Positions 1-54,419 of a DNA stretch of 64,000 bases are shown piece by piece (position 1 is the stretch's first letter; every line of letters begins with the position of its first letter). The stretch is from positions 44,353-108,352 of the forward strand of contig MFPS01000003.1 in NCBI GenBank assembly GCA_001782825.1. Direction: 5' to 3'. Source of the stretch: Candidatus Magasanikbacteria bacterium RIFCSPHIGHO2_01_FULL_33_34. Lineage in GTDB: Bacteria > Patescibacteriota > Patescibacteriia > Magasanikbacterales > UBA922. The translations under genes and the position numbers were made by a program. The notes beneath the pieces were generated by a model. It saw nothing but the letters and a program-made list of their open reading frames with translations. It was not told where the DNA came from and searched no databases.

Positions 1-189
1 TGATTTTTTACAAAAAGCTCATGATATATCAAATAAACCTAAATGTTTTGTGGTCTTGCCAAAATCAAGTATAAATAGTGATATAGAAAAATTTGTTATA
101 GAAAAAATGAATGATAATGGTCGTTTGGTGGGGGATTTTGTGGTGTTTGAGGAATTAGTGAATAGTAATGATATTGAAGTTGACGAATA
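1..189 (+). CDS. 3' end of an unidentified protein (partial, ends ...NDIEVDE*)
   Basis: An open frame runs in from the window edge and stops at 187-189. I recognise no motif. Confidence 0.3.
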
Positions 190-215
190 GCCAAAAATGT
201 TATAATTTAGATTAA

Positions 216-330
216 ATATAATTGGAATTATTATTCGCTCCCTGCCTGCCGGTAGGCAGGATTCTCGCTTTGGCTCCGAGGATGATGCTTATTGTAGCAT
301 CAAATCCGCTCATAATAATTCCAATTATAT
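216..330 (+). repeat. Nested-palindrome intergenic repeat, short variant with an extra inserted hairpin (copy a)
   Basis: The outer stem is ataattggaattattatt / aataataattccaattat. The core is gattctcgctttggctccgagg plus the hairpin gatgct-tattgt-agcatc. An inserted hairpin cctgcc...ggcagg lies at 241-260. Confidence 0.8.
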
Positions 331-365
331 TTAATATTACACATAGTTTAAATAGTTTATTATAT

Positions 366-773
366 ATGGCAGACAAATGTATTTTTTGTGGGATAGTAGG
401 GGGTGAAATTCCAAATCATACAGTATATGAGGATAGTATGGTTTTGGCTTTTTTGGATATATTTCCTCATGCCAAAGGTCATACAGTGGTGATACCAAAG
501 GATCATTTTGAATCTCTGTGGGATATGGACACAGACACATTTCAGTCAATTTTGGCTGGGGTACGCGCTACTGCTGGTCGTGTACAAGCTAGACTCAAGC
601 CGGATGGTATGAATATAGGTATCAATAATGGTAAAAGTGCAGGTCAAGTTGTACCGCATGTACATTGGCATATCATTCCGCGTTGGGAGGGGGATGGTGG
701 CGGTAGTATGCATAGTATTATTAAAAATCCAGGAGATAAAAGTGTTGATGAAATAGCAAAATTATTTAAATAA
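366..773 (+). CDS. HIT-family (histidine triad) nucleotide hydrolase
   Basis: MADKCIFCGIVGGEIP...HVHWHIIPR is the HIT motif. The ATG at 366 is the first start after the repeat, so the longer ORF from 222 is a read-through of the repeat. Confidence 0.85.
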   Translation: MADKCIFCGIVGGEIPNHTVYEDSMVLAFLDIFPHAKGHTVVIPKDHFESLWDMDTDTFQSILAGVRATAGRVQARLKPDGMNIGINNGKSAGQVVPHVHWHIIPRWEGDGGGSMHSIIKNPGDKSVDEIAKLFK

Positions 774-787
774 TATAAAGATATAAA

Positions 788-925
788 ATATAATAGCGTT
801 ATTTATACTTTTAATCATGACCGTATCAATTTGTTTATTTATTTTTACTCCCTGCCTGCCGGCAGACAGGATTCTCGCCTGCGGGCTCCGAGGTGTCGCC
901 TGTTGTGGCAACAAATCCGTAAAAA
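788..925 (+). repeat. Nested-palindrome intergenic repeat, long-type 5' module plus core with inserted hairpin (copy b)
   Basis: The 5' module is ataatagcgttatttatactttt... The core is ctccctgcctgccggcagacaggattctcgcctgcgggctccgagg plus the hairpin gtcgcc-tgttgt-ggcaac, then aaatccgtaaaaa. Confidence 0.75.
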
Positions 926-997
926 GAATACTTACCAAATAAATTAATAAAAAATCAAAACAAATATGTTTAGGTGTTTAAATATTTAAATGTTTAT

Positions 998-1999
998 ATG
1001 CAAATATTAGTATGTGGTGGTGCTGGTTTTATGGGCTCGCACTTTATAAAATATATATTAGAAAAATATCCAGATTACATGCTGGTAAATTTTGATAAAC
1101 TCACTTATGCGGGCAATTTGGAAAATTTGAAAGAAGTAGAAAATAATAAAAGATATAAATTTGTAAAAGGGGATATTTGTGATGCATCTGAAGTTGATAG
1201 AGTAGTCAGAGAAAATAAAATTGATACAATAGTAAATTATGCAGCAGAGACCCATGTTGATCGATCGGTTATGGACCCGTCTGCATTTTTGAAGACTAAT
1301 ATTTTTGGTTCATATAATTTATTAGAGGCGACAAAAAAATTTGATCTAAAAAAAATGGTTCAAGTTTCAACTGATGAAGTATTTGGAAGTATTGATAGTG
1401 GAAAGTTTCGTGAAGATTCACCATTTGAACCAAATAGTCCATATTCGGCTGCAAAGGCTGGTGGAGATTTGCTTTGCCGTTCGTATTTTGTTACTTTTCA
1501 AACGCCAGTGGTAGTGACACATAGTTGTAATTTTTATGGTTCAAATCAATATCCAGAAAAATTAATACCACTTTTTGTCACAAATTTGTTGGAAGGCAAA
1601 AAAGTACCGGTATATGGTGATGGTAAGCAGGTGCGTGAATGGATATATACGGAAGATCATTGTAATGCAATTGATGTGATTTTACATAAAGCAAAAGCTG
1701 GTAGTGTTTATAATATTGGATCAGGAGATGAAATTGAAAATATAGAAATTACAAAATTAATTTTGGAATATTTGGGTTATGATGAAAAAATGATAGAGTA
1801 TGTAAAAGATAGGCCAGGGCATGATAAACGTTATGCGCTTGATGCCAATAAATTAAAAAATGAATTAGGTTGGGAAGCAAAAGTTAATTTTAGAGATGGG
1901 TTGAAAAAAACCGTTGATTGGTATAGAGAAAATGAAGATTGGTGGAAAAAAATAAAAGATGGCAGTTATTTAGAATATTATAAAAAACAGTATAATTAA
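998..1999 (+). CDS. rfbB: dTDP-glucose 4,6-dehydratase
   Basis: MQILVCGGAGFMGSHF is a Rossmann GxxGxxG motif. YSAAKAGGD is the YxxxK catalytic motif. SDR-extended family features are conserved throughout. Confidence 0.88.
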   Translation: MQILVCGGAGFMGSHFIKYILEKYPDYMLVNFDKLTYAGNLENLKEVENNKRYKFVKGDICDASEVDRVVRENKIDTIVNYAAETHVDRSVMDPSAFLKTNIFGSYNLLEATKKFDLKKMVQVSTDEVFGSIDSGKFREDSPFEPNSPYSAAKAGGDLLCRSYFVTFQTPVVVTHSCNFYGSNQYPEKLIPLFVTNLLEGKKVPVYGDGKQVREWIYTEDHCNAIDVILHKAKAGSVYNIGSGDEIENIEITKLILEYLGYDEKMIEYVKDRPGHDKRYALDANKLKNELGWEAKVNFRDGLKKTVDWYRENEDWWKKIKDGSYLEYYKKQYN

Positions 2000-2001
2000 T
2001 T

Positions 2002-2089
2002 ATTAAAGATTATTATTTACTCATTCTCGCTGTGGCTCCGAGGTGTTTGCCTGTTGTGGCAAACAAATCCGTTCATAATAATCTTTAAT
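2002..2089 (+). repeat. Nested-palindrome intergenic repeat, short variant (copy c)
   Basis: The outer stem is attaaagattattat / ataataatctttaat. The core is ctcattctcgctgtggctccgagg. The hairpin is gtttgcc-tgttgt-ggcaaac. Confidence 0.85.
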
Positions 2090-2119
2090 AATTAATTTTT
2101 ACTATTCATTAATTAAAAT

Positions 2120-2956
2120 ATGAAAATATTAATAATTGGAAAGGGTTTTATTGGAGCTAGGTGTGCTGAAGTTTGGGGTGAGGAAGCTTTTGTTAGTGAC
2201 AAAATAATTGATTCAAAACAAGATGTTTTAGATTTGCTTGTTGAATATAATCCTGATGTAGTGTTGAATGCGGCTGGAGTTAGAGGGAAGCCAAATGTAG
2301 ATTGGTGTGAAACAAATCAAGAGGAGACAATATTGGGCAACACAAAACTCCCAATTATTATTGCCGAAGCTTGTCAAGAAAAAAATATTTATTTATTACA
2401 TATTGGTTCAGGTTGTATATTTTATGGAGAGTCTCCAGATCCAAAAGGTTGGAAGGAGTCAGATTTTGGCAATCCTATTCCAGTCTATTCAAGGTCTAAG
2501 TGGGCAGCAGATTTGGTACTTTCAACTTTGCCAAATGTTGGTATTGCTCGTATTCGTATGCCGATTGATTATATACCTTCACCAACTAATATGATTGATA
2601 AATTAGCGACTTTCCCAAAAGTGATTGATGTGGAAAATTCTGTTACTATTGTTGAAGATATGATTGATGTTTTTTATAAATTAATGGAAAAAAGAGCAGA
2701 AGGAATATTTCATGTTACAAATCCTGGTACTTTGAAACACAGAGAAATTATTGCATTGTATGAAGAGTTGGTTGATCCAAATCATAAAAATGAGTGGATA
2801 AGTAATGATGATTTGGTAGCTCAAGGTTTGGCAACAAAAGGTAGGTCAAATAATTTTTTACAATCAGAAAATTTAGAAAAACTTGGAATTAAAATGCGTC
2901 CTATTCATCAAGCAATGCGAGATACAATGGAGAAGTATGCAAAGTTAAAAAAGTAG
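2120..2956 (+). CDS. NAD-dependent sugar epimerase/reductase, RmlD-like (dTDP-4-dehydrorhamnose reductase family)
   Basis: The N-terminus has GKGFIG. NAAGV...VDWCE...LLHIGSGCIFYG parallels RmlD. It sits next to rfbB. Confidence 0.6.
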   Translation: MKILIIGKGFIGARCAEVWGEEAFVSDKIIDSKQDVLDLLVEYNPDVVLNAAGVRGKPNVDWCETNQEETILGNTKLPIIIAEACQEKNIYLLHIGSGCIFYGESPDPKGWKESDFGNPIPVYSRSKWAADLVLSTLPNVGIARIRMPIDYIPSPTNMIDKLATFPKVIDVENSVTIVEDMIDVFYKLMEKRAEGIFHVTNPGTLKHREIIALYEELVDPNHKNEWISNDDLVAQGLATKGRSNNFLQSENLEKLGIKMRPIHQAMRDTMEKYAKLKK

Positions 2957-2968
2957 TTTATAAATATT

Positions 2969-3739
2969 ATGGACTTGAGTATTATTACTGTAACTTGGAA
3001 TTCAGAAAAAAAAATTGAAAATCAGATTTTGTCTGTTATTTCTAGTTGTAGAAATATTACTTTTGAACAAATTATTATTGATAATAATTCACCTGATAAA
3101 ACTGTTGAAGTTGTTAAAAAATTTAATAATGTAAAATTAATTGAAAATAAAGAGAACAAAGGCTTTGGTGCGGCTAATAATCAAGGAATAGAAATTGCAT
3201 CGGGGAGATTTGTTTTATTTCTTAATCCTGATATGAAAGTTGAAGGGGATGCGCTTAATAGAATGGTAGATTATATGGTCCAAAATAGTAATGTTGGCAT
3301 TGCTGGGTGTAAATTATTAAATGAAAATGGGGAATTGAATTTGGCAACAACTCCAAGAAGATTTCCAAAATTGTGGGAACAATTATTTATTGTATTTAAA
3401 ATACATCATTTTTTGCCAAAAATTTTGGATAGATATTTATTTAGAGATTTTAATCCTGAGGTAGAACAAGAAGTAGATTCAGTCCAAGGTTCATTTATGA
3501 TTGTACGTCGTGAATTGATTGATAAACTTGGTTGGGGTTTTGACCCTAGATATTTTATTTGGTTTGAGGATGTAGACTTGTGTCGTGAAGCTAAGAAAAA
3601 TAGATATAAGGTAATGTATACACCAATTGCTACTTGTATTGATTATGCTGGACAAAGTTTTAAAAAAAGGACTACTTGGTGGAAACAAAAACAATACATA
3701 AAAAGTATGTTGAAATATTTTATTAAGTGGGGAGTATAA
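2969..3739 (+). CDS. Glycosyltransferase family 2
   Basis: ITVTWNS...IIIDNNSPD...GFGAANNQG is a GT2 (GT-A fold) signature with DxD. Confidence 0.8.
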   Translation: MDLSIITVTWNSEKKIENQILSVISSCRNITFEQIIIDNNSPDKTVEVVKKFNNVKLIENKENKGFGAANNQGIEIASGRFVLFLNPDMKVEGDALNRMVDYMVQNSNVGIAGCKLLNENGELNLATTPRRFPKLWEQLFIVFKIHHFLPKILDRYLFRDFNPEVEQEVDSVQGSFMIVRRELIDKLGWGFDPRYFIWFEDVDLCREAKKNRYKVMYTPIATCIDYAGQSFKKRTTWWKQKQYIKSMLKYFIKWGV

Positions 3740-3740
3740 T

Positions 3741-4754
3741 ATGGTTAAATTAACAGTGCAATTATTAGTTTGGAATGGAGAAAAATATCTTCCTCATCTT
3801 TTTGAGTCTTTGAGAAAGCAAACAAGTAAAGATTGGCAAATATTTATTTTGGATAATGGTTCTGCTGACAATTCTGTTTCGGTAATAAAAAAAGAATTAG
3901 CTAATTTTTCTATACCTAATTTTTTTGAAGAGGGAGAGTCAAATATTGGTTTTTCGCCTGGACATAATTATATTTATGAACAAACTGATACAGAGTATGT
4001 GTTGATGTTAAATCAAGATTTGTATTTGGAACCAAATTGTATTGAGCGATTAATTTCATTTATGGATAAAAATAGTGAGGTGGCTAGCGTGTCTCCTCGA
4101 CTTATGAAATGGAATATTAATTCACTTGATCACTTTTTTTCTGAGTATGTTGATTCATTGGGTTTAAAAGTGTTTAAAAATAGACGTGCGGTTGATTGGT
4201 ATAATGGTCAGAAGTATGAAAATTTTTTAAATACTAATAAGGATAAAAAAGAAATAGAAGTTTTTGGCGTATCTGGTACATTGCCGATGTTTAGGAGAAG
4301 TAATATAAATAGTATCTTATATGATAATAAATATATATTTGATCCAGATTATAGTTCTTACAAAGAAGATGTAGATTTGGCTTATCGTTTACGATCGGCT
4401 GGATTCAAGTCATATGTAGTTTTGGATACTTGCGCATATCATGATAGAACTAGTGATATAGAAATTACTGTAATAGATAATAAGAAAAAACAACCAGAAC
4501 ATGTAAAATATTATAGTTATAGGAATCATTTGATGACAATATATAAGAATGAATATTTACTAAATTTTATCCTTGATTTTTTTTGGATATTGTGGTATGA
4601 AGTAGGTAAATTTATTTGGTTTTTGTTATTTGATAGAAAGGTTTTAAAAGGTTTGGGAGATATATGGAAATTCAGAAAAAATTTGAAAAGTAGACGAAGA
4701 CAGATAATAAAACAAAGAAAAATAGGATGGTATAAAATTAGAACTTGGTTTTGA
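3741..4754 (+). CDS. Glycosyltransferase family 2
   Basis: QLLVWNGEKYL...ILDNGSADNS is GT2-like. It abuts the upstream GT2 with a 1-nt gap. Confidence 0.75.
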   Translation: MVKLTVQLLVWNGEKYLPHLFESLRKQTSKDWQIFILDNGSADNSVSVIKKELANFSIPNFFEEGESNIGFSPGHNYIYEQTDTEYVLMLNQDLYLEPNCIERLISFMDKNSEVASVSPRLMKWNINSLDHFFSEYVDSLGLKVFKNRRAVDWYNGQKYENFLNTNKDKKEIEVFGVSGTLPMFRRSNINSILYDNKYIFDPDYSSYKEDVDLAYRLRSAGFKSYVVLDTCAYHDRTSDIEITVIDNKKKQPEHVKYYSYRNHLMTIYKNEYLLNFILDFFWILWYEVGKFIWFLLFDRKVLKGLGDIWKFRKNLKSRRRQIIKQRKIGWYKIRTWF

Positions 4755-4770
4755 AAGTATTATTTAGTAT

Positions 4771-5613
4771 ATGAAAGATATTAATATTGTATACGTAAAT
4801 TATTTGATGAAGGAGGATATTTTGAAAGCAGTCAGTAGTGTATTGACTGATATTTTGGGTTGTCCTTATGATGTACAAATTACAGTGGTAGATAATTCTG
4901 AAAATAAGGATGACATAAAGGAAGATTTAGAAAAACTTTATCCTGAAGTAAAATATATTGATGCAGGGGGTAATATTGGTTTTGGAAAGGGTAATAATAA
5001 AGGTTTTAAGTCAACGGAATCAAGATATTATTTTGCTTTAAATAGGGATACTATTATTCCAGATAATTCCAATACTATTGAAAGGATAATTAAGTTTATG
5101 GATAATAATCCAAAGATTGGTTGTATTGGTCCAAAGTTAATTAATATGGATCAGACTCTTCAGGATACATGTTATAGATTTGATTTTAAATCAATTATTG
5201 TTAAACCATTTAAGCAAATTAATTTTGATAAAAAATATAATTGGGTGAAAAAATATACAAATAGATTGTTGATGAAAGATTTTGATCATAATACTACTAG
5301 ACCAGTGGATTGGGTATTGGGGGCGGCTATGGTTGTTAGAAAGGAAGTAGTGGACGAAATAGGTTGGTTTGATGATAGATATTTTATGTATTTGGAAGAT
5401 TGTGATTGGTGTAGAACTATGTGGGATAATGGTTGGCCAGTATATTATGTACATGATATAGTAATACAGCATAGATATGCTCGGGCTTCGGCAGAAATAC
5501 CAGGTGTATTGAAAGCCTTATTAAAAAATAAGTTAGCGCGTATTCATTTGATAAGTTGGTTTAAATATATTTTGAAGTGGCGAGGTAAATTTAAGTATTA
5601 TAAATCTATATAA
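4771..5613 (+). CDS. Glycosyltransferase family 2
   Basis: VVDNSENKDD...GGNIGFGKGNNKG, plus a C-terminal ED..W motif typical of GT2. Confidence 0.7.
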   Translation: MKDINIVYVNYLMKEDILKAVSSVLTDILGCPYDVQITVVDNSENKDDIKEDLEKLYPEVKYIDAGGNIGFGKGNNKGFKSTESRYYFALNRDTIIPDNSNTIERIIKFMDNNPKIGCIGPKLINMDQTLQDTCYRFDFKSIIVKPFKQINFDKKYNWVKKYTNRLLMKDFDHNTTRPVDWVLGAAMVVRKEVVDEIGWFDDRYFMYLEDCDWCRTMWDNGWPVYYVHDIVIQHRYARASAEIPGVLKALLKNKLARIHLISWFKYILKWRGKFKYYKSI

Positions 5614-5627
5614 GTTTTATTTATAAG

Positions 5628-5797
5628 ATATAATAGCATTATTTATACTTTCAACCACGATTGCATTTTTTTCAATTATTTGTTTTTACTCATTCTCGCT
5701 TTGGCTCCGAGGGTGATGCCTGTTGGGGCATCAAATCCGTAAAAACAAATAATTGAAAATAATGCTTAATTATAAATAACGTTTTCAATTTTTACAC
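5628..5797 (+). repeat. Nested-palindrome intergenic repeat, long variant (copy d, reference copy)
   Basis: The 5' module is ataatagcattatttatactttcaaccacgattgcat. P1 is caattatttgtttttac / gtaaaaacaaataattg. The core is ctcattctcgctttggctccgagg. The hairpin is gatgcc-tgttgg-ggcatc. The 3' module is aataatgcttaattataaataacg. Confidence 0.9.
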
Positions 5798-5804
5798 TTT
5801 ATTT

Positions 5805-6905
5805 ATGGAAAAATATCCTAAAATTGCGATAATTTATTTATCATTTGATTCTGAACAATATTTGGATGATGTTGTTTCAGGACTCAAAAAAGTAAGTTAT
5901 CCAAAAGATAAGTTAGAGTTGGTTATAGTGGACAATCCACATCCAAAATATGGCTCATCTGTGAGAGCTATACAAGAAATTATTATGCCACATTCTGGTT
6001 TGGATTTGCCTCACGTTACACTTTTGCCACAAAAAGAAAATTTAGGTTTTGCTGGTGGAAATAATGTTGGTATACAATGGGCATTGGATAATAATTTTGA
6101 TTATATTTATCTTCATAATAATGATGGATTTACTTCAATCAATACTTTTGAATCACTTGCTAAAGTTATGGAGGAAGATAAAACTATAGCAGTGGCTCAA
6201 TCTTTATTACTTCTTCATCCAGATACAGAATATTTAAATAATGCAGGTAATTCTTTTCATTATCTTGGATTTGGTTATTGTGATAAATATAGAGAAAGAG
6301 TGGATGAAGTAAAATTGCCTCCAGTTATGGAGATTTCATATGCTAGTGGCGCTGCTTGTATTGTCAGATCAGATTTGATTAGAAAATACGGAATGCTTGA
6401 TCATGATTTCTTTTTGTATCATGAAGATTTGGAATGGTGTTTTCGTTTTAGGGTAGTTGGATACAAAACAGTTTTGGTGAGAGATTCTGTTTTTTACCAC
6501 AAGTATCAGTTTAGTCGTAGTATTGAAAAGTTTTATTATATGGAGAGAAATCGCTATGGTGTGATGTTGATGTTTTTCAAGCTTCCTTCTTTATTATTAC
6601 TTTTACCTATGGCAATAATTTTAGAGTTTGGTTTGTGGCTTTTTGCTTGGCGTGGTGGTTGGGTAGATAAAAGATTGGAAGTATATAAATATTGGTCAAA
6701 GCCAAATAATTGGAAATTGTGGTTGGGAAAAAGAAAAAATATTCAAACAATGAGAAAAATATCAGACAGAGAACTCTTTAAGTTCAGCGTTCCAGGTATA
6801 TATTTTCAAGAAAAATCTATGGAAAATCCAATTTTGAAATATATTGGAAATCCAGTAATGAAGATATATTATTGGATTGTGGTAAGAGGGATTATTTTTT
6901 GGTAA
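5805..6905 (+). CDS. Glycosyltransferase family 2 with a C-terminal membrane segment
   Basis: IAIIYLSFDSEQYL...VIVDNPHP, plus a hydrophobic C-terminal region. Confidence 0.7.
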   Translation: MEKYPKIAIIYLSFDSEQYLDDVVSGLKKVSYPKDKLELVIVDNPHPKYGSSVRAIQEIIMPHSGLDLPHVTLLPQKENLGFAGGNNVGIQWALDNNFDYIYLHNNDGFTSINTFESLAKVMEEDKTIAVAQSLLLLHPDTEYLNNAGNSFHYLGFGYCDKYRERVDEVKLPPVMEISYASGAACIVRSDLIRKYGMLDHDFFLYHEDLEWCFRFRVVGYKTVLVRDSVFYHKYQFSRSIEKFYYMERNRYGVMLMFFKLPSLLLLLPMAIILEFGLWLFAWRGGWVDKRLEVYKYWSKPNNWKLWLGKRKNIQTMRKISDRELFKFSVPGIYFQEKSMENPILKYIGNPVMKIYYWIVVRGIIFW

Positions 6906-6909
6906 AAAT

Positions 6910-7944
6910 ATGATAACAAAAGCAATACTTACTGGTGGTGGTAGAGCAACTAGGCTTTATCCGATTACATCAACAATTAATAAGCATTTGTTGCCTTTGG
7001 CAAATAAGCCAATGATTTTTCATGCTATTGAAAAAGTGGTTGATGCGGGTATTAAAGAGATATTTATAAATGTAAATCCTGGGGAGGAAGATTTGCAAAA
7101 ACATATTGGTGATGGTGGGCATTGGGGTGTAAAAATAAAGTTTTTTGAGCAAACTGGTGGTCCACAAGGTATTGCCCATGTGGTAAATGAAGCAAAGAAG
7201 TTTATAGGGGATGATCCTTTTGTTTTTTATTTGTCTGATAATATTTTGTTTGGTGATGTAAAGGAAATGATTGAGGAATTTAATAAGGGCGAACATGATT
7301 GTATGTTGGCTTTGTCTGAAGTTCCAGATCCAAATCGTTTTGGTGTACCAGTTTTTGATAATGTTGGTAATTTGATTGATGTGATAGAAAAACCAGAAGT
7401 AGCACCAAATAATTTTGCTGTGACTGGGATATATTTGTATGGTCCAAAAATATTTTTTGAAGCATTTGATAATATAGAAAAAAGCGCAAGAGGCGAGTAT
7501 GAAATATCAAGTATTCATTCTTACTTTTTAAAAAATAACAAAAAAGTTGGTTATAAAGAGATAACTGGTTGGTGGAAGGATACAGGTAAAACAGAAGATC
7601 TTTTGTTGGCAAATAGATTATTACTTGAAAAAACTAATAATATAATTCAAGTTAGTCCGAGTTGTGTTTATGATGATACAGTTGAATTGATTGCACCAGT
7701 TATAATTGGTGAAAATTGTATTTTGAAGAATTGTAAAATAGGACCATATGTTACTATTGGTCAAGGATCAATTATAAAAAATGCTAATATTGAGGATTCA
7801 ATATTGTTATCTAATGTTGAGATTGATTGTCAAATAACAATATCTGATAGTTTGATTGGCAAGGGGGTTAAGTTTTTGAAGAAAGAAGAAAGAAATAAAA
7901 AACATAAGTTGATAGTAGGAGATAAAACTGTTATTGAATTTTAG
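6910..7944 (+). CDS. Glucose-1-phosphate thymidylyltransferase-like sugar nucleotidyltransferase (RmlA-like N-terminus plus C-terminal left-handed beta-helix)
   Basis: LTGGGRATRLYPITSTINKHLLPLANKPMI matches the RmlA G1P-binding N-terminus. The C-terminus has hexapeptide-like repeats. Confidence 0.75.
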   Translation: MITKAILTGGGRATRLYPITSTINKHLLPLANKPMIFHAIEKVVDAGIKEIFINVNPGEEDLQKHIGDGGHWGVKIKFFEQTGGPQGIAHVVNEAKKFIGDDPFVFYLSDNILFGDVKEMIEEFNKGEHDCMLALSEVPDPNRFGVPVFDNVGNLIDVIEKPEVAPNNFAVTGIYLYGPKIFFEAFDNIEKSARGEYEISSIHSYFLKNNKKVGYKEITGWWKDTGKTEDLLLANRLLLEKTNNIIQVSPSCVYDDTVELIAPVIIGENCILKNCKIGPYVTIGQGSIIKNANIEDSILLSNVEIDCQITISDSLIGKGVKFLKKEERNKKHKLIVGDKTVIEF

Positions 7945-7952
7945 TTTATTAG

Positions 7953-9287
7953 TTAATAATTCAATTCATATAACCCAGTTTTATCTCCAACTTTTCCAAA
8001 AAAGTAAATTCTATTTTCTCTTTTATATACACTAGCATTATAAACTTCACCATTATATAGATTTTGATTTACATAATAACCTGGGTTGAATGATTCAATA
8101 CCATGATTGTTAACAATAGCCAAAGCACCGACATCATCAAGTGGAAATACAAATTTAATATTGTCACTAGTTCTATTTAGTAGTGCTGGTTTATCATGTT
8201 CATATATAGACCATAATTCCCATGCAGACCAAGTTAGCCACTCGTTGGTGGATGTATTTCTGTGAAAATTGAGAGTATGAATTGCTTCTTGTTTGTTTTG
8301 TTCTCTGGAAATAATTAATACTTCAGTATCAGTTTGTAATATTGCCCGATAATTATTTATATCAATAATTTTTTTAATTCCTAATGGATTGGGAATAGAA
8401 ATTTTATCTTGTGAATCATTACTATTTTTAACTATTAAGTTATCTTTTTCTAGAATCCAGAATTTTTCTAAGTCATCAATATACCATATTGTCGTAGAAC
8501 TGAGATTAAACATCTGTTCACTGGTATTGGTGGTCAATCTAAAAATTTTGTTATTTTCATCTATAAAAATAGTTGGAATTGGAGAATTTTTTTGCCATTG
8601 ATAATGCAATACTTTTTCTTTGTCGATTAGAACTTCATAATTTGTTATTGTATCTGTATTATCTGCATTTAAAATACTGATTGATGCGATATTTTTTTCA
8701 AATTTAGTAAATAAAATATAATTATTAAATGGCGACCATTCTAATTGATATTTTGTATTTTCTGGTAATTTGAAAAGTGGAGAAAATTCTTCTGATTGTG
8801 AATCAAATAGTTCAATATTTGTAGTTTTGTTTTTTGTAGAAGATAATAAAATAAATCTTCCATCAGTTGATGGTAAAAAAGAATCAATATTATTTTTTGT
8901 ATTGTCTATTGCTGTAGGTAGTGAGTCTTTTAGTAAGTTTATGTTTTTTATGTAAGTTGTTTGTTTACTTTTTACATCTATATTTTTTTCCCATGTTTTA
9001 TATCCGGGTAATGAAATTTTTAGATTATATGTACCGGGGGTTCTGTTGGTTAGTCTGATTGGTATTTTTTTTGTTATCTTTATATCATTTAGATATACTT
9101 CTGCTTCTTTTGGTTTTATATCTATACTAATAACTCCGGTCTCAATAATTTTTTTATTTTCTATATCAAGACGATAACCCATGGAATAAAGTATTAATAA
9201 AGGTGTGATAGTAAAAAAAATCGAAACTAAAAAAAACAAAAAAATACTTCTAAATTTTTTGTCATTGTAGGTATTTGATTGCCTCAT
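7953..9287 (-). CDS. Hypothetical membrane-anchored protein with a PEGA-like domain
   Basis: It has an N-terminal TM helix. IDIKPKEAEVYLNDIKI...PGTYNLKISLPGYKTW resembles a PEGA domain. Confidence 0.5.
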   Translation of the reverse strand: MRQSNTYNDKKFRSIFLFFLVSIFFTITPLLILYSMGYRLDIENKKIIETGVISIDIKPKEAEVYLNDIKITKKIPIRLTNRTPGTYNLKISLPGYKTWEKNIDVKSKQTTYIKNINLLKDSLPTAIDNTKNNIDSFLPSTDGRFILLSSTKNKTTNIELFDSQSEEFSPLFKLPENTKYQLEWSPFNNYILFTKFEKNIASISILNADNTDTITNYEVLIDKEKVLHYQWQKNSPIPTIFIDENNKIFRLTTNTSEQMFNLSSTTIWYIDDLEKFWILEKDNLIVKNSNDSQDKISIPNPLGIKKIIDINNYRAILQTDTEVLIISREQNKQEAIHTLNFHRNTSTNEWLTWSAWELWSIYEHDKPALLNRTSDNIKFVFPLDDVGALAIVNNHGIESFNPGYYVNQNLYNGEVYNASVYKRENRIYFFGKVGDKTGLYELNY

Positions 9288-9355
9288 AATCAGAAATAAT
9301 TTGATTAAATTGCTAAATTTAGCTTAAAATAGCAGTATTGTATTTTTCATTATGT

Positions 9356-9384
9356 TACGCTATAATAGTAGCGTCTTTTTTATA
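9356..9384 (+). other. Hairpin (acgcta-taatag-tagcgt) followed by a T-run, in a divergent intergenic region
   Basis: The sequence shows a 6-bp stem followed by cttttttat. It lies between a minus-strand and a plus-strand gene. Confidence 0.3.
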
Positions 9385-9443
9385 AAAAATCAACTATATT
9401 TGGTATTGATATATTTTTATATAGTTTGTATTAAAATATTAAA

Positions 9444-10754
9444 ATGTTTAATAATACATTTGTTATAAATGGTGGAAAAAAATTAAAAGGAACTATTGAA
9501 ACTAGTTCTGGAAAAAATGCACCGATTGCTTTATTATGTGCATCTGTTTTGGTTAAAAATAAAGTCATTTTAAAAGATATGTCTCATGTTGAGGAGATTG
9601 ACAGGATGATTGAGGTTTTGGTCAGTATAGGTGTGGACATCAAATGGCTGGATAAGACTTCATTGTATATTGATAGCTCAAAGGATTTAACAATGGATAA
9701 AATCAATAAAGAAGCTTGCGCAAGTACTAGAGTATCTCTTTTGTTATTAGGCGCTTTAGCTTCAAGAGAAAAAGATTATAAATTGTATAAAACTGGCGGT
9801 TGCAAATTGGGGGAGAGAACTATTAGGCCACATCTCTATGCACTTGAAAAATTTGGTGTAAGAGTTGAGTCTAAGTCAAAATATTATGAAGTAAAAAATT
9901 CATCACTTCAAGCACAAGATATAGTAATGTATGAATCAGGGGATACTGCAACTGAGAATGCTATTATGGCTGCTATTTTTGCACCGGGTGTTTCTACTAT
10001 TAAGTTTGCATCAGCCAATTATATGGTTCAGGATTTGTGTTATTTTTTGAATACTGCTGGCGCAAAGATTGAGGGGATTGGCACAACAACATTAGTGATC
10101 ACAGGTGTCAAAAAATTACATAAAGTAGATGAATATTTTGTTATTCCAGATCCGGTTGATGCAATGGCATGGATTTCACTTGCTATTACCACAAAATCTT
10201 TGCTTACCATTAAAAATTGCGCATATGATTTTTTGGCTCTTGAATTGGAAAATTTATCAGTGATGGGTCAAAAATATCTTTTATTAAACAAAAGAAAATC
10301 AAAAAGTGGAAATTTTCTTATTTATGATATTAAAATAACCCCATCTGATTTAAAAGCTCTTCCAGATAAATTACATGGACGACCATATCCAGGATTGAAT
10401 ATAGATAATGTACCATTGTTTGTGCCAATACTTACTCAAGCCAAAGGTGAGACTTTGATTCATGATTGGGTTTATGAAAATAGAGCAATTTACTATTTGG
10501 AATTAAAAAAATTAGGTGCAGATATTTTATTACTTGATCCACATAGAGCCTTGATCAAAGGTGTGGTTGAACTCAAAGCAAATGAGGTTGTTTGTCCTCC
10601 AGCTATTAGACCGGGTATGGCTATATTAATCGCTATGTTAGGTGCCAAAGGTAAATCAGTATTGAAAAATGCTTACCCGATTGAAAGAGCTTATGATAAT
10701 TTAGTGGAAAGATTGCGTAGCATAGGGGCTGATATATCCAAAGTTAATAATTAA
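9444..10754 (+). CDS. murA: UDP-N-acetylglucosamine 1-carboxyvinyltransferase
   Basis: It has the EPSP-synthase/MurA fold. FVINGGKKLKGTIETSSGKNAPIALLCASVL is the MurA N-terminal signature. Confidence 0.85.
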   Translation: MFNNTFVINGGKKLKGTIETSSGKNAPIALLCASVLVKNKVILKDMSHVEEIDRMIEVLVSIGVDIKWLDKTSLYIDSSKDLTMDKINKEACASTRVSLLLLGALASREKDYKLYKTGGCKLGERTIRPHLYALEKFGVRVESKSKYYEVKNSSLQAQDIVMYESGDTATENAIMAAIFAPGVSTIKFASANYMVQDLCYFLNTAGAKIEGIGTTTLVITGVKKLHKVDEYFVIPDPVDAMAWISLAITTKSLLTIKNCAYDFLALELENLSVMGQKYLLLNKRKSKSGNFLIYDIKITPSDLKALPDKLHGRPYPGLNIDNVPLFVPILTQAKGETLIHDWVYENRAIYYLELKKLGADILLLDPHRALIKGVVELKANEVVCPPAIRPGMAILIAMLGAKGKSVLKNAYPIERAYDNLVERLRSIGADISKVNN

Positions 10755-10760
10755 TAATAT

Positions 10761-12062
10761 ATGAATTTAGATATTAATAATACTCCAATACAAAAAAATA
10801 AAAAAAATAGATTAATGTATATTTTTTTAAGTTTATTTTTTTTAATAGTAGCTTTTTTTGGTGGGGTTGTGGTGGGGTCAACTTCAATTGTAAAAAATGA
10901 AATATTTAATGATGGTGGTGAGGTGAATATTAGTAAGATAATAAATTTATACAGTAAAACAAGATCTGAAGAAGTTAGTTTTGATCAATATTGGGAAGTT
11001 TGGAATAAGATTAAAAAGGGTTATGTTGATCAGCCAGTAGATGATGTAGATTTGTTTTATGGTTCAATCGTTGGTATGGTGGCATCGCTTGATGATCCAC
11101 ATTCAGTGTATTTTCCACCAAAGGAAGCCAAGGAATTTTCTAAAGATTTGGCTGGAGAGTTTGAGGGGATTGGTGCTGAGATTGGTATTCGTGATAATCA
11201 ACTTACAATTATTGCTCCTTTGCCAGGTTCACCAGCAGAAAACGCTGGTTTGAAGCCCCGTGACAAAGTATTAGCGATAGATGGCGAAGACACATCTTCT
11301 ATGAAACTTGATTTTGCTGTATCAAAAATCAGAGGTCCAAGGAATTCTGAAGTTACTTTAACCATAACTCATAATGGTTATGAAACTGTAGAAGACGTAG
11401 TTATAAAAAGAGACAAAATAAATGTTCCTACTATTGAATCAAAAATTGTAGAAGATACTAATATTGCTTATTTGAGAATAAGTTATTTTAATCAAGATAC
11501 ATGGTTTGATTTTGACAAAGCTGTGCGTGAATTACTCAAAGAATCTCCAAAAGGTTTTGTATTGGATTTGAGGAGTAATCCGGGTGGATTTTTGGAAACT
11601 TCTATTGATGTAGCAAGTGAATGGATAAAACAAGGTATTATTGTTAGTGAAAAAAATGGTAAAGATATTGTATTGGAACACAAGAGTAGAGGGTCTCATA
11701 GATTGGCTGGATTGCCAACTGTGGTTTTGGTTGATGAAGGCACAGCATCAGGATCTGAAATTGTAGCGGGTGCATTACAGGATTATGGTGTTGCCAAGAT
11801 TGTGGGTATGCAAACATATGGCAAAGGATCTGTACAAGATTTTGAAGTATTATTTGATGGTTCAGGCTTAAAATTGACTATAGCAAAATGGTTTACACCA
11901 AAAGATAGGGCGATTGATGGTCAAGGAATTGAGCCAGATATAATTTTAGAAGAAATGTTTTCCCCTATTTATTCAGAAGTTGAAAATGCTGATGGGGAGT
12001 TTGATATAGTTGATGTTGATGATATAGGACTAAAAAAGGCTCTTGATATTTTAGATATTTAG
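10761..12062 (+). CDS. Carboxyl-terminal processing protease (S41, PDZ-containing)
   Basis: It has an N-terminal TM helix, a PDZ region (APLPGSPAENAGL) and the S41 motif LRSNPGGFLE. Confidence 0.8.
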   Translation: MNLDINNTPIQKNKKNRLMYIFLSLFFLIVAFFGGVVVGSTSIVKNEIFNDGGEVNISKIINLYSKTRSEEVSFDQYWEVWNKIKKGYVDQPVDDVDLFYGSIVGMVASLDDPHSVYFPPKEAKEFSKDLAGEFEGIGAEIGIRDNQLTIIAPLPGSPAENAGLKPRDKVLAIDGEDTSSMKLDFAVSKIRGPRNSEVTLTITHNGYETVEDVVIKRDKINVPTIESKIVEDTNIAYLRISYFNQDTWFDFDKAVRELLKESPKGFVLDLRSNPGGFLETSIDVASEWIKQGIIVSEKNGKDIVLEHKSRGSHRLAGLPTVVLVDEGTASGSEIVAGALQDYGVAKIVGMQTYGKGSVQDFEVLFDGSGLKLTIAKWFTPKDRAIDGQGIEPDIILEEMFSPIYSEVENADGEFDIVDVDDIGLKKALDILDI

Positions 12063-12064
12063 TT

Positions 12065-12430
12065 ATGGCAGAGTATTCGGTATCAGGAATTGTCGTAAAA
12101 GGAGATGGGTTAGCTAAAAATTTTGGTTATCCAACTGCGAATTTAGATATAAGTTTGGATAAGTTTGATTTAGCATCTGGTGTATATGCTTGTATTGCAT
12201 ATCTTGAAAACATTCAATATAATGCTGTTGCTATAATTAAAAGGAATGAAAGTAAATTTGAAGTACATTTGATTGGGTACGATGGATTAGATTTTTATAT
12301 GAAACAGGTGTCAATTAATTTACTTAGTAAAGTTAGTGATATTGAAAAGAAAGATGGGCAAGAATTGATTGATAAAATAGAAAGTGATATGAAAAAGGTA
12401 TTTGATTATTTTAGTCGTAAGATACAATAG
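12065..12430 (+). CDS. Riboflavin kinase (monofunctional, RibF C-terminal-domain-like)
   Basis: GIVVKGDGLAKNFGYPTANL and EVHLIGYDGLDFY match the riboflavin kinase domain. Confidence 0.7.
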   Translation: MAEYSVSGIVVKGDGLAKNFGYPTANLDISLDKFDLASGVYACIAYLENIQYNAVAIIKRNESKFEVHLIGYDGLDFYMKQVSINLLSKVSDIEKKDGQELIDKIESDMKKVFDYFSRKIQ

Positions 12431-12575
12431 CATTATTTATACTTTCAACTACGATCGCATTAATTACAATTATTTGTTTTTACTCATTCTCGCTGTGGCT
12501 CTGAGGTGATGCCTGTTGTGGCATCAAATCCGTAAAAACAAATAATTGTAATTAATGCTTTAAATTTTTACATTT
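12421..12575 (+). repeat. Nested-palindrome intergenic repeat, long variant (copy e)
   Basis: The 5' module overlaps the stop codon at 12428-12430. P1, the core ctcattctcgctgtggctctgagg, the hairpin gatgcc-tgttgt-ggcatc and the 3' module are all present. Confidence 0.9.
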
Positions 12576-12594
12576 TAATTTATAAGTAGTAGTT

Positions 12595-15996: not shown

Positions 15997-16028
15997 AATT
16001 ATTATTTTAGAAGTAGTGTAAATTAATA

Positions 16029-16116
16029 ATTAGAGATTATTATTTGCTCATTCTCGCTTTAGCTCCGAGGAGGTTGCCGGTTGGGGCAACCTGATCCGCT
16101 CATAATAATCTCTAAT
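16029..16116 (+). repeat. Nested-palindrome intergenic repeat, short variant (copy f)
   Basis: The outer stem is attagagattattat / ataataatctctaat. The core is ctcattctcgctttagctccgagg. The hairpin is ggttgcc-ggttgg-ggcaacc. Confidence 0.85.
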
Positions 16117-16143
16117 TATTAATTCTATTTTAGATTATAAATT

Positions 16144-16313
16144 AATTTGTAAAATACAATAGCATTGTTTATACTTTTAACCATGACCGCATCAATTTCA
16201 ATTATTTGTTTTTACTCATTCTCGCCTCGGCTCCGAGGGTGATACCTGTTGGGGTATCAAATCCGTAAAAACAAATAATTGAAATTAATGCTTGCTTATA
16301 AACAATGTTTTTA
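16144..16313 (+). repeat. Nested-palindrome intergenic repeat, long variant (copy g)
   Basis: The 5' module has cattGtttat and the 3' module has ataaaCaatg, a compensatory pair relative to the other copies. The hairpin is gatacc-tgttgg-ggtatc. Confidence 0.9.
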
Positions 16314-16345
16314 ATTATTACAATTAATTTATACTACTCATCATT

Positions 16346-49457: not shown

Positions 49458-49532
49458 ATAGTTTAATACGTTTTTTATATTGTAGCATAGTTTTTGTGAG
49501 AAAAAAAGCTGTTTTTTTATTATGTATTTATA

Positions 49533-49724
49533 GATTATATTAGTATTGTCTATATTTTTAATTATGATTGTACTAATTTTAATTATTTGTTTTTACTCTC
49601 TGCCTGTCGGCAGGCAGAATTATCGTTTTGGCTCCGAGGTGATTGCCTGTTGTGGCAATCAAATCCGTAAAAATAAATAATTGGAACTAATGCTTAATTA
49701 TAAATAATGTTTTTATTTTTTACA
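49533..49724 (+). repeat. Nested-palindrome intergenic repeat, long variant with an inserted hairpin (copy h)
   Basis: A divergent 5' module precedes P1. The inserted hairpin is ctgcctg-tcgg-caggcag. The core is cgttttggctccgagg. The hairpin is gattgcc-tgttgt-ggcaatc. The 3' module follows. Confidence 0.85.
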
Positions 49725-53459: not shown

Positions 53460-54305
53460 ATGTTATTAGATACTCATTGTCATTTACAGTTCAAAGGATT
53501 TGATGAAGATAGGGGAGATGTTATAAAACGCATTGCAGAAAAAGGCGTTGTTTTGAATATTGTTGGCACGCAAAAAAATACTAGTAAGTTGGCAGTTGAA
53601 TTGGCAGAAAAATATGAAAATTTTTATGCATCAATCGGTACTCATCCGGTCCATTTGTTTCCTAGTCATATAGATGAAGAAGAATCTAGTTTTAAATCTC
53701 GTGAAGAAGATTTTGATGAAGAATATTATGGTGAATTGGTCAAATCAAAGAAAGTGATTGCTATTGGGGAGACTGGACTAGAATTATATCATTTGCCCAA
53801 AGACAAAACAGTTGAAGAAGTTTTGAAAAAACAAAAAGAGGTGTTTGTGGCCCATATTAATTTTGCAAAAAAACATGATTTGCCATTGGTGATACATTGT
53901 CGTGAAGCGCATGAAGAAATGGCAAATTTATTGGAAAGTTTTGGTAGAAATATAAGGGGCACAATGCATTGTTTTACAGGCAATTGGGAACAAGCACAAA
54001 AATATTTGAAATTAGGATTGTATTTGGGTTTTACTGGTGTAGTTACTTTTCCACCCAAAAAAACCAATCCTCAACAACAAATTGATTTGCTGGAGGTTTT
54101 GGAGCGGGCTCCACTGGATAGAATAGTCGTAGAAACTGACTCGCCATATCTTGCTCCGCAAATTTGTCGGGGTAAACGATGTGAACCGTGGATGGTAGAG
54201 GAAGTTGTAAAAAAATTGGCAGAAATAAGAAAAATGGAGTATAAGGAAGTAGAGGATCAGGTGGCAAAAAATACCTTGGCTTTGTTTACTAGAATTAATG
54301 CTTAA
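53460..54305 (+). CDS. tatD: TatD-family metal-dependent hydrolase
   Basis: The N-terminus is MLLDTHCHL. Conserved H/E/D metal ligands are present. Confidence 0.85.
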   Translation: MLLDTHCHLQFKGFDEDRGDVIKRIAEKGVVLNIVGTQKNTSKLAVELAEKYENFYASIGTHPVHLFPSHIDEEESSFKSREEDFDEEYYGELVKSKKVIAIGETGLELYHLPKDKTVEEVLKKQKEVFVAHINFAKKHDLPLVIHCREAHEEMANLLESFGRNIRGTMHCFTGNWEQAQKYLKLGLYLGFTGVVTFPPKKTNPQQQIDLLEVLERAPLDRIVVETDSPYLAPQICRGKRCEPWMVEEVVKKLAEIRKMEYKEVEDQVAKNTLALFTRINA

Positions 54306-54316
54306 TTATAAATAGC
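54294..54316 (+). repeat. Fragment of the repeat 3' module (attaatgcttaattataaatag) overlapping the tatD stop codon
   Basis: It matches the 3' modules of copies d and h. Confidence 0.5.
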
Positions 54317-54351
54317 ACTTTTAATTCTCACGAATAAATTTAAAAATGAGT

Positions 54352-54380: not shown

Positions 54381-54395
54381 GAGGCATTTCATATT

Positions 54396-54419
54396 AATAA
54401 TTAGAGATTATTAATTAGC
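54396..54419 (+). repeat. Solo outer-stem fragment of the short repeat (ttaataattagagattattaattag)
   Basis: It matches the 5' arm of copy f over 21 nt, and no core is present. Confidence 0.5.

What the first reader, a model, noticed from the sequence alone, without database searches (positions are those of the whole stretch)
5628..5797. Compensatory base changes in three different stems of the repeat, which argues for selection on secondary structure
The P2 hairpin stems read gatgcc/ggcatc (copies d and e), gatacc/ggtatc (g), gattgcc/ggcaatc (h), ggttgcc/ggcaacc (f), gtttgcc/ggcaaac (c) and gatgct/agcatc (a). The loop TGTTGK is invariant across them. The short-form outer stem reads attaGagattattat...ataataatctCtaat in f and attaAagattattat...ataataatctTtaat in c. 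The long-form outermost pairing is cattAtttat...ataaaTaatg in h and cattGtttat...ataaaCaatg in g. Paired sites change together while loops stay fixed. That is the classic signature of a functional folded RNA or ssDNA, and it is not what independent decay of transposed copies would produce.
Basis: seen in the sequence. Interest (0 to 1): 0.8.

Follow-up and report, generated by a model that had tools for sequence, protein, structure and literature searches.

The report
Mobile palindromic repeat with structured core
The flagged 170-base stretch is one copy of a small mobile hairpin-forming repeat in an uncultivated Magasanikbacteria (CPR) genome; its stems do change in compensated pairs around a strongly conserved core, but whether the selected fold is RNA or single-stranded DNA is still open.

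Summary
The main observation holds. The window carries 8 copies of one repeat, all on the + strand, and 5 more lie elsewhere in the same species. Each has a conserved ~50-nt core (CTC-ATTCTCG-tip-CTC-CGAGG, hairpin P2, AAATCCG) closed by a long palindromic stem. On 19 copies, 15-16 of 22 modelled pairs change on both sides, against 2-6 in slid controls. P2 has 10 haplotypes in 13 copies of one species and 4 more in other species, and all but one are perfectly paired. Two or three copy-and-paste subfamilies cannot explain that.

The loop is not invariant (a TATTGT, f GGTTGG). Copy h lacks the quoted 5' arm.

The copies are transposed. Relatives have empty sites, one site is filled or empty between strains with 98% identical DnaK, direct repeats of 8-9 bp flank insertions, and decayed fragments exist.

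All 21 family members sit on the leading (G-rich) strand. Six of them lie between lagging-strand genes.

No Rfam family matches. The closest analogues are structured MITE-like repeats such as Bacillus bcr1. The evidence on RNA versus DNA is mixed: P2 has no G·U pairs, but several hairpin tips carry UNCG or GNRA loops.

The parts
5625..5795 (+). Copy d, the finding: a full-length long-form element
   Evidence: CM score 96.8 bits.
5616..5624 (.). Left copy of the 9-bp direct repeat TTTATTTAT flanking d (candidate target-site duplication)
   Evidence: p about 0.001 against shuffled flanks. Removing the element and one repeat leaves a 9-nt spacer between stop and ATG. The relatives have 5-16 nt there, or overlapping genes.
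5798..5806 (.). Right copy of TTTATTTAT; it overlaps the ATG of the glycosyltransferase gene 5805-6905
5625..5648 (+). 5' outer arm of d (AAGATATAATAGCATTATTTATAC). It is homologous to the sp2 terminus GTTAGAATTAAGCGTTATTTATA and contains a -10-like TATAAT.
5663..5689 (+). 5' inner stem of d, which pairs with 5739-5765 (27 bp, one T·T mismatch)
5689..5739 (+). Conserved core of d: CTC ATT CTCG-CTTTGG-CTC-CGAGG G [P2] AAATCCG
5714..5733 (+). P2 hairpin of d: TGATGCC / TGTTGG loop / GGCATCA
   Evidence: All 7 P2 pairs change on both sides across the family.
5739..5765 (+). 3' inner stem of d
5770..5795 (+). 3' outer arm of d, ending ...TTTTTAC
212..334 (+). Copy a: short form with its own perfect 23-bp arms and the P1 palindrome at 241-260. 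P2 is TGATGCT/AGCATCA and the loop is TATTGT.
778..931 (+). Copy b: long form with P1 (851-870), a degenerate 3' arm, P2 TGTCGCC/GGCAACA (one C·A mismatch) and tip CC-UGCG-GG
1994..2097 (+). Copy c: short form with perfect 23-bp arms. The stop codon of the upstream epimerase gene lies inside the 5' arm.
12417..12571 (+). Copy e: long form lacking part of the 3' outer arm. It reads GGCTCTGAGG. The stop codon of the upstream gene lies inside the 5' arm.
16021..16124 (+). Copy f: short form of the c type, with P2 AGGTTGCC/GGCAACCT and loop GGTTGG. It lies between two minus-strand genes.
16149..16321 (+). Copy g: long form flanked by AATTAATTT on both sides (16140-16148 and 16322-16330), with P2 TGATACC/GGTATCA. 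It lies between two minus-strand genes.
49531..49723 (+). Copy h: long form with a P1 variant (49599-49618, TCTGCCTGTCGGCAGGCAGA) and decayed arms. It lies between two minus-strand genes.
54292..54331 (+). Remnant: a solo long-form 3' arm that overlaps the end of the TatD gene
   Evidence: (family D3)
54393..54413 (+). Remnant: a solo short-form 5' arm, identical to 16022-16042 of copy f

Best explanation
This is a family of non-autonomous, MITE-like mobile palindromic elements of Candidatus Magasanikbacteria.

Anatomy. Each copy is a long inverted repeat whose sequence differs between subfamilies. The repeat closes an asymmetric, sequence-conserved core of about 50 nt. On one strand the core folds into a three-way junction: the closing stem, a small bulged hairpin (P-core) and hairpin P2. 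Some copies carry an optional fourth hairpin, P1, which makes the junction four-way.

Shown here. New copies insert into AT-rich intergenic spacers, often inside operons, and duplicate about 8-9 bp of the target. The copies then decay. The stems vary in compensated fashion around conserved unpaired nucleotides. Every copy has the same orientation relative to replication.

Inferred. Selection acts on the fold of the + (leading-strand) sequence and on the unpaired core nucleotides, so stems change freely as long as pairing is kept. I judge the selected molecule most likely to be a transcript made from the element, because of the UNCG/GNRA-type tips, the -10-like box at the 5' end of long forms and the bcr1 precedent. 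In that reading the core is the element's functional or recognition module. The same strand folded as single-stranded DNA on the lagging-strand template is the main alternative.
For: - Family and anatomy.
- Covariation: 15-16 of 22 pairs change on both sides against 2-6 in slid controls; 89% of cells pair against 42-51%; 0 of 500 shuffles reach this. RNAalifold recovers the same three helices.
- P2 haplotypes: 10 in 13 copies of one species and 4 more elsewhere, all Watson-Crick except b.
- Core conservation: the core is identical between the window species and sp2, while the neighbouring stems are unrelated in sequence.
- Mobility, empty sites: the two genes flanking d are 5-16 bp apart or overlap in relatives with 74-81% identical proteins.
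- Mobility, strain polymorphism: the hsp20-dnaK spacer is 18 bp in L104 but 167 bp, with a copy, in L013 and L103 (98% identical DnaK). The insertion is flanked by AAATAATT, which is present once in the empty site.
- Mobility, flanking repeats: 9 nt at d (p about 0.001), 9 nt at g (0.004), 7 nt at L013a (0.012).
- Mobility, decay: remnants at 54.3 kb.
- Patchy distribution: only 3 single copies in 1.47 Mb from 83 loci of other Magasanikbacteria (80 species representatives plus three close relatives), against 10 copies in 83 kb here.
- RNA-type tips: UGCG (b), UUCG (k), UGCG (L030 P2 loop), GCGA (L071).
- Precedent: bcr1 is a non-autonomous repeat flanked by direct repeats, is transcribed, and shows compensatory changes at the RNA level (PMC3184786).
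Against: - No autonomous partner or transposase was found.
- The arms, which serve as transposase sites in a classical MITE, are not conserved between subfamilies.
- The strain-polymorphic copy lacks a 5' outer arm, and its ends are not inverted repeats.
- Short forms show no clear target duplication.
- The repeat flanking g is largely palindromic (AATTAATT), so it could be an extension of the inverted repeat rather than a duplication.
- No direct evidence of transcription exists. The promoter scan is no better than shuffled sequence (99 found, 102 expected) and no terminator-like site falls on an element.
- P2 has no G·U, and G·T is not enriched over A·C in the stems. That pattern looks more like DNA than RNA.
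Confidence: 0.6

Rival explanations
1. The element acts as single-stranded DNA. The + strand is the lagging-strand template and is transiently single-stranded at the replication fork. There it folds, and the core hairpins are what a structure-recognising enzyme sees. That enzyme could be a HUH or other ssDNA transposase or recombinase, or even a primase or primosome. RNA plays no part.
For: - All 21 family members lie on the G-rich strand.
- GC3 skew shows that the + strand is the leading strand throughout: plus-strand genes +0.27 to +0.82, minus-strand genes 0 to -0.50 on their own coding strand, all but one negative.
- Six copies at five loci (f/g, h, j, k, l) sit between lagging-strand genes and still keep this orientation.
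- The stems are strictly Watson-Crick, with no G·T excess.
- Arm sequence is free and only the pairing is kept, as expected for recognition of structure.
- ssDNA transposons are known to show a lagging-strand-template bias (PMC5027513, PMC6006769).
Against: - Flanking 8-9 bp duplications and inverted-repeat arms are not features of IS200/IS605-type ssDNA transposition (my own knowledge of that family).
- No HUH gene was seen in the roughly 100 kb inspected.
- UNCG and GNRA tips have no special stability in DNA.
- Orientation bias relative to replication is also reported for IS families with other transposition pathways (PMC3971601). It would also arise for any transcribed unit.
Confidence: 0.22
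2. These are a multi-copy family of host small-RNA genes or cis-acting RNA modules. Each is a resident functional gene, and the palindromic arms simply form the closing helix or terminator. They are not mobile elements.
For: - The core is conserved and the stems covary.
- A hairpin (P1) is optional at a junction, as in many RNA families.
- A -10-like TAnAAT sits at a fixed position in the 5' outer arm of long forms in two species, and T-runs follow the 3' arm.
- The copies are co-oriented with replication, as highly expressed genes are.
Against: - Close relatives have empty sites, and one site is filled or empty between near-identical strains.
- Direct repeats flank the insertions.
- Copies overlap stop codons of neighbouring genes.
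- Solo-arm remnants exist.
- The family is absent from most Magasanikbacteria.
- No Rfam family matches.
Confidence: 0.1
3. The palindromes are functionless. The compensated changes arise mechanically, because replication template-switching within hairpins corrects quasipalindromes, and copies inherit arms that are already matched. No selection acts on any fold.
For: - The stems are strictly Watson-Crick and the arms are perfect over 23-27 bp.
- P2 shows symmetric insertions (GATGCC to GATTGCC, with GGCATC to GGCAATC).
- Template-switch correction of quasipalindromes is an established mutational mechanism (PMC7202029).
Against: - It does not explain why unpaired core nucleotides are more conserved than stems. 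Among long forms the tail is 100% identical and the P2 loop 90%, against 73-77% for the P2 5' arm and 75-83% for the outer arms.
- It does not explain why the core is identical between species of 32% and 45% GC.
- It does not explain why a hairpin persists at the P2 position with entirely unrelated sequences in L059, L030 and L071.
Confidence: 0.08

Closest known systems
bcr1 (group A interspersed repeats of the Bacillus cereus group)
   Same: Both are about 155 bp, non-coding and non-autonomous. Both are flanked by short AT-rich direct repeats and have a non-conserved distribution between related strains. In bcr1, base-pair compensatory changes maintain a cruciform-like fold with independent stem-loops at the RNA level (PMC3184786).
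   Different: The host phylum is unrelated, and I did not compare the sequences. bcr1 has 5-bp direct repeats and is conserved along its whole length. Here the duplications are 8-9 bp and only the core is conserved, while at least 8 different arm types surround it. The strict leading-strand orientation is not, to my knowledge, a described bcr1 feature.
Classical bacterial MITEs that fold into long hairpins (Correia/nemis, ERIC/IRU, RUP)
   Same: They are small, intergenic, have terminal inverted repeats and target duplications, are often co-transcribed with neighbouring genes, and vary in occupancy between strains (PMC3184786; otherwise my own knowledge).
   Different: In those families the termini are the conserved, transposase-bound part and the interior is free to vary. 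Here the pattern is inverted. No cognate IS was found.
IS200/IS605 family and derived palindrome-associated elements (ssDNA 'peel and paste')
   Same: Folded single-strand structures are recognised rather than duplex sequence, and orientation is biased toward the lagging-strand template (PMC5027513, PMC6006769).
   Different: Those elements have no terminal inverted repeats and make no target duplication (my own knowledge). The elements here have both.
REP/REPIN elements mobilised by RAYT transposases
   Same: They are intergenic hairpin-forming repeats, and REPINs are inverted doublets that form long hairpins. The 20-nt GC-rich P1 palindrome resembles a REP unit.
   Different: There is no GTAG or CGTC tag (PMC3733652 describes those tags), no RAYT gene was seen, and there is a large asymmetric conserved core.
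Integron attC sites
   Same: Structure is conserved rather than sequence. They lie between genes in a single orientation and are active as a folded single strand (my own knowledge).
   Different: The RYYYAAC and GTTRRRY core sites are absent from the arm ends. The neighbours are housekeeping operon genes, not cassettes, and no integrase was found.

Membership tests
MITE (miniature inverted-repeat transposable element) | Small (under about 500 bp) and non-coding | tested here: met
   The elements are 104-193 bp and intergenic.
MITE | Terminal inverted repeats | tested here: met
   Short forms have perfect 23-bp arms (25 bp with one mismatch in copy i). Long forms have 27-bp inner arms plus outer arms. 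The arms are not conserved between subfamilies, and one recent copy lacks the 5' outer arm.
MITE | Target-site duplication | tested here: inconclusive
   Clear at d (9 nt, p about 0.001), L013a (7 nt) and the strain-polymorphic copy (AAATAATT, single in the empty site). The repeat at g is largely palindromic. Duplications are weak or absent at L009 and L016 and undecidable for short forms.
MITE | Multiple copies with presence or absence differing between related genomes | tested here: met
   13 copies in this species, empty sites in relatives, and one site filled or empty between strains.
MITE | A cognate autonomous IS with the same termini | tested here: inconclusive
   The terminus motif AGCRTTRTTTATA occurs only in the elements themselves. 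No transposase appeared in about 100 kb of annotated context. The whole genome was not available.
Any Rfam 15 RNA family | A covariance-model match at the gathering score | tested here: not met
   There were 0 matches in the window. At E up to 10 the only matches on the elements were chance miRNA-precursor-like hairpins.
IS200/IS605-type ssDNA element or PATE | No terminal inverted repeats and no target duplication; subterminal hairpins | tested here: not met
   Inverted-repeat arms and flanking duplications are both present.
IS200/IS605-type ssDNA element or PATE | Orientation bias relative to the replication fork | tested here: met
   All 21 family members lie on the G-rich (leading) strand.
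Integron attC | R''/R' core sites (RYYYAAC ... GTTRRRY) at the ends, within a cassette array next to intI | tested here: not met
   The arm ends read GTAAG...TTAC, TTAAAT... or AATTAAT.... The neighbours are housekeeping genes.
Intrinsic (Rho-independent) terminator | A GC-rich stem directly followed by a T-run | tested here: not met
   None of the 13 terminator-like sites in 1-17000 falls on an element. The stem bases are A/T-rich.
Structured RNA under selection (generic) | Significant covariation together with tolerance of G·U pairs | tested here: inconclusive
   Covariation is strong. G·U is absent from P2 and not enriched elsewhere. Transcription was not testable.

The most novel reading that the evidence does not exclude
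The conserved ~50-nt junction core could be a new functional nucleic-acid module that is itself what gets propagated. One possibility is a new small ribozyme, or an RNA recognised by a reverse transcriptase or transposase. That would make these elements an RNA-structured (SINE- or retrozyme-like) mobile element in CPR bacteria. Another is a folded ssDNA signal read on the lagging-strand template.

This reading would explain four observations together: the arms are free in sequence; one recent copy is 5'-truncated yet still flanked by a duplication; every copy faces the same way relative to replication; and the core is identical across species.
Probability: 0.18. Interest if true: 0.8.

Novelty: new variant of a known kind. 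Interest (0 to 1): 0.45.

Why it matters
CPR bacteria have tiny, streamlined genomes, and very little is known about their mobile DNA or their non-coding RNAs. This element reaches about one copy per 8 kb, sits inside housekeeping operons, and differs between near-identical strains. It is therefore an active shaper of these genomes and could serve as a strain marker.

It also reverses the usual MITE pattern: the interior is conserved while the termini vary, and the orientation relative to replication is strict. That makes it a tractable case for asking what a mobile hairpin element needs in order to propagate: a folded RNA, a folded DNA strand, or both.

For genome scanning there is a methodological lesson. 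Compensated changes in a hairpin do not on their own separate selection on RNA from DNA-level upkeep of a palindrome.

Tried and rejected
- Rfam at gathering and permissive thresholds: nothing real.
- Strict core pattern in 185,579 species-representative genomes: 0 hits. In viral contigs: 0 hits.
- BLAST of copy d against phage and plasmid collections: nothing relevant.
- Literature searches for CPR or Magasanikbacteria MITEs or ncRNAs: nothing describing this element.
- Consensus promoter and terminator scan: uninformative in this AT-rich DNA.
- Strain-level comparison of the window copies (L001-L006): all identical, so it gives no information.
- Loop-tail pseudoknot (UUUGG with UCAAA), checked by eye: copy f breaks 2 of its 5 pairs. 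Rejected.
- AUU/AAU junction helix, checked by eye: the type-2 members change both sides to a non-pair. Rejected.
- Integron attC, tyrosine-recombinase dif-like site, IS608-type target (TTAC), hammerhead core: each rejected on sequence features.
- 'Species 3' (L014) turned out to be the window species or a close relative (identical copy in L105). It does not count as an independent species.
- Four of the 12 metagenome pattern hits (L011, L012, L015, L017) are chance matches in high-GC DNA.

Full report
**What is at the coordinates.** The stretch 5628-5797 lies in the 191-bp spacer between two co-directional glycosyltransferase genes (4771-5613 and 5805-6905). It is one copy ('d', 5625-5795) of a dispersed repeat. 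A search for the core decamer GGCTCYGAGG finds 8 sites in the window, all on the + strand, where about 1 is expected by chance. The core decamers start at 272 (a), 884 (b), 2034 (c), 5703 (d), 12497 (e), 16061 (f), 16229 (g) and 49630 (h). By the names on homologues of the flanking proteins, the organism is a Candidatus Magasanikbacteria (CPR) bacterium with 32% GC.

**Anatomy.** Every copy has the same asymmetric core: CTC / ATT / CTCG-(variable tip)-CTC-CGAGG / hairpin P2 / AAATCCG. Copies a, b and h (and j and l outside the window) carry an extra 20-nt palindrome, P1 (CCTGCCTGCCGGCAGGCAGG), inserted exactly between CTC and ATT. A long inverted repeat closes the core, and its sequence differs between subfamilies:
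- Long forms (b, d, e, g, h) have a 27-bp inner stem plus outer arms.
- Short forms have perfect 23-bp arms, with one arm type in c and f and another in a.

Copy d folds at -47.1 kcal/mol (z = -7.1). The reverse strand folds about as well (-48.4, z = -6.2), so energy does not identify the strand.

- The P2 stems are as listed.
- The c/f change is right, and a second compensated position exists.
- The g outermost pairing is right.
- 'Loop TGTTGK invariant' is wrong for a (TATTGT) and f (GGTTGG).
- The 5' half quoted for h is not in h. That arm reads tattgtctat, which gives three mismatches. The A-T state of the pair is in d.

**More copies.** A metagenome pattern scan found a second Magasanikbacteria species, 'sp2' (45% GC; DnaK about 82% identical to named Magasanikbacteria). 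It has five distinct copies. Their core is identical to d over about 27 nt, but P2 differs (TGTTTGGC/GCCAAACA) and the inner stems are unrelated in sequence. The outermost termini are about 70% similar to those of the window long forms. Walking out from the window and fetching a second contig of the same or a very close species added five copies: l and m (L108) and i, j and k (L105).

Covariance models built from the core found little elsewhere. In 1.47 Mb taken from 83 loci of other Magasanikbacteria (80 species representatives plus three close relatives), there were only three single copies:
- L059, a diverged type 1 that sits in the same intergenic site as d.
- L030 and L071, a 'type 2' with the core CCTCG-tip-CTC-AGGG-P2-AACCCG.

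L071 was not in the seed alignment and still scored E = 1e-5. No Rfam family matches. Nothing similar turned up in phage, plasmid or viral collections.

**Covariation.** On the model-based alignment of 19 copies:
- 89% of cells form standard pairs, against 42-51% when partners are slid by 1-3 columns.
- 15-16 of 22 pairs change on both sides, against 2-6 in the slid controls.
- None of 500 shuffles reaches the observed values (16 copies).

By helix, all 7 P2 pairs and 8 of 10 closing-stem pairs show two-sided changes. The P-core lower stem shows only one-sided changes (U·G to C-G; G-C to G·U). An alternative tip pairing, G39-C52, has one two-sided change (to A-U, in i and L059). RNAalifold on my base-anchored manual alignment recovers the same three helices.

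P2 haplotypes in the window species are TGATGCT (a), TGTCGCC (b), TGTTTGCC (c), TGATGCC (d, e, k), AGGTTGCC (f), TGATACC (g), TGATTGCC (h, m), CATTTGCC (i), CAGTTGTC (j) and TGACGCT (l). That is ten in thirteen copies, all perfectly paired except b. P2 type does not follow arm type: h is a long form and m a short form, yet they share one P2, while five long forms all differ. That condition is not met.

**The copies are nevertheless transposed.**
- In relatives whose orthologues are 74-81% identical, the two genes flanking d are 5-16 bp apart or overlap. The sites of b and c are also empty in the closest relative.
- In sp2, the hsp20-dnaK spacer is 18 bp in one strain (L104) and 167 bp, containing a copy, in two others (L013, L103; DnaK 98% identical). 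The insertion is bounded by AAATAATT, which occurs once in the empty site.
- Flanking direct repeats are significant against shuffled flanks at d (9 nt, p about 0.001), g (9 nt, p about 0.004, but largely palindromic) and L013a (7 nt, p about 0.012). They are weaker elsewhere.
- Solo-arm remnants lie at 54292-54331 and 54393-54413.
- Copies c and e overlap the stop codons of the upstream genes.

**Orientation.** Third-codon-position GC skew shows that the + strand is the leading strand all along the window, L105 and L108. Plus-strand genes give +0.24 to +0.82. Minus-strand genes give 0 to -0.50 on their own coding strand, all but one negative. All 13 copies of this species are on that strand, and so are the five sp2 copies, L059, L030 and L071. 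That makes 21 of 21. Six copies at five loci (f/g, h, j, k, l) lie between two lagging-strand genes and still keep the leading-strand orientation. Orientation therefore follows the replication strand, or the element's own transcription, and not the neighbouring genes.

**RNA or DNA?**

For DNA:
- P2 has no G·U pair in any haplotype.
- Outside one invariant U·G, the stems have 3 G·T and 4 A·C mismatches.
- The arms are long perfect palindromes.
- Orientation is tied to replication.
- Hairpin-templated template switching can produce compensated changes mechanically (PMC7202029).

For RNA:
- When a hairpin tip is lengthened or replaced, it carries a UNCG or GNRA loop closed by C-G: UGCG in b, UUCG in k, UGCG in the L030 P2 loop, GCGA in L071.
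- Unpaired junction nucleotides are more conserved than stems. Among long forms the tail is 100% identical and the P2 loop 90%, against 73-77% for the P2 5' arm and 75-83% for the outer arms.
- Long forms in both species keep a TAnAAT box at a fixed distance from the first stem.
- The closest analogue, bcr1, is transcribed and shows RNA-level compensation (PMC3184786).

A purely neutral palindrome model fails on the cross-species identity of the unpaired core. It also fails on the persistence of a hairpin at the P2 position with unrelated sequences.

**Comparison with known systems.** The element meets most defining features of a MITE: small size, inverted-repeat arms, many copies, and occupancy that differs between genomes. 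Target duplication is clear at only some copies, and no cognate IS was found. It departs from classical MITEs because the interior is the conserved part and the termini are not. It fails the tests for IS200/IS605-type elements (it has arms and duplications), attC sites, intrinsic terminators and every Rfam family. [quoted passage not shown]

**Verdict.** I classify it as a new variant of the structured MITE-like repeat kind, of moderate interest.

Noticed in passing
window 241-260, 851-870, 49599-49618; L019 18381-18402; L024 about 2567-2586 and 19497-19516; L070 about 5781-5800; L075 about 20550-20569; L099 about 5164-5183: The P1 insert is a perfect 20-nt GC-rich palindrome, CCTGCCTGCCGGCAGGCAGG. 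It also occurs on its own, outside this element, in five other Magasanikbacteria species, and one site in L024 looks as if it lies inside a coding region. It may be an independent REP-like mini-element. Within the repeat family, however, it always sits at the same point (CTC|P1|ATT).
   Followed up: partly
L019 17366-17591 and L021 14551-14833; L019 6219-6413 and 18343-18539; L021 12166-12251: Related species carry other, unrelated long palindromic intergenic elements. One has ends GGGTCTGTCGCCGAATGT... and is shared by L019 and L021. Several sit in the same intergenic sites that hold copies c and f/g in the window, so these spacers appear to be insertion hot spots.
   Followed up: no
window 54292-54331 and 54393-54413: Two solo-arm fragments of the repeat lie in one spacer: a long-form 3' arm that overlaps the end of the TatD gene, and a short-form 5' arm identical to part of copy f. 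They are evidence that copies decay.
   Followed up: partly
L013 2938-3011 (= L103 754-827); empty site at L104 3915-3933: The strain-polymorphic copy in sp2 lacks the 5' outer arm. Its two ends (TGAGTCC... and ...AAATCTTAT) are not inverted repeats, yet an 8-bp direct repeat flanks it. This is hard to reconcile with two-ended cut-and-paste transposition.
   Followed up: partly
L059 9800-9910: A diverged copy sits between the same two glycosyltransferase genes as copy d, in a species whose orthologue is only 61% identical. Closer relatives (74-81%) have an empty site. This means either independent insertion into the same spacer or repeated loss.
   Followed up: partly
window, whole length; L105; L108: Replication-strand asymmetry at third codon positions is unusually strong. 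GC3 skew is +0.24 to +0.82 in plus-strand genes and 0 to -0.50 in minus-strand genes on their own coding strand, all but one negative.
   Followed up: yes
window 30773-30868 and 30929-31024: A 96-nt internal direct repeat (74% identical) lies inside the small ORF 30761-31054. It suggests a duplicated domain in a 97-aa protein.
   Followed up: no
window 26008-27951: This ORF matches type IV secretion coupling-protein domains (TrwB_AAD_bind, TraG-D_C) and sits among housekeeping genes.
   Followed up: no
window 16021-16124 and 16149-16321: A short-form copy and a long-form copy sit 24 bp apart in one spacer between the Era and RNase T genes, both antisense to those genes.
   Followed up: partly
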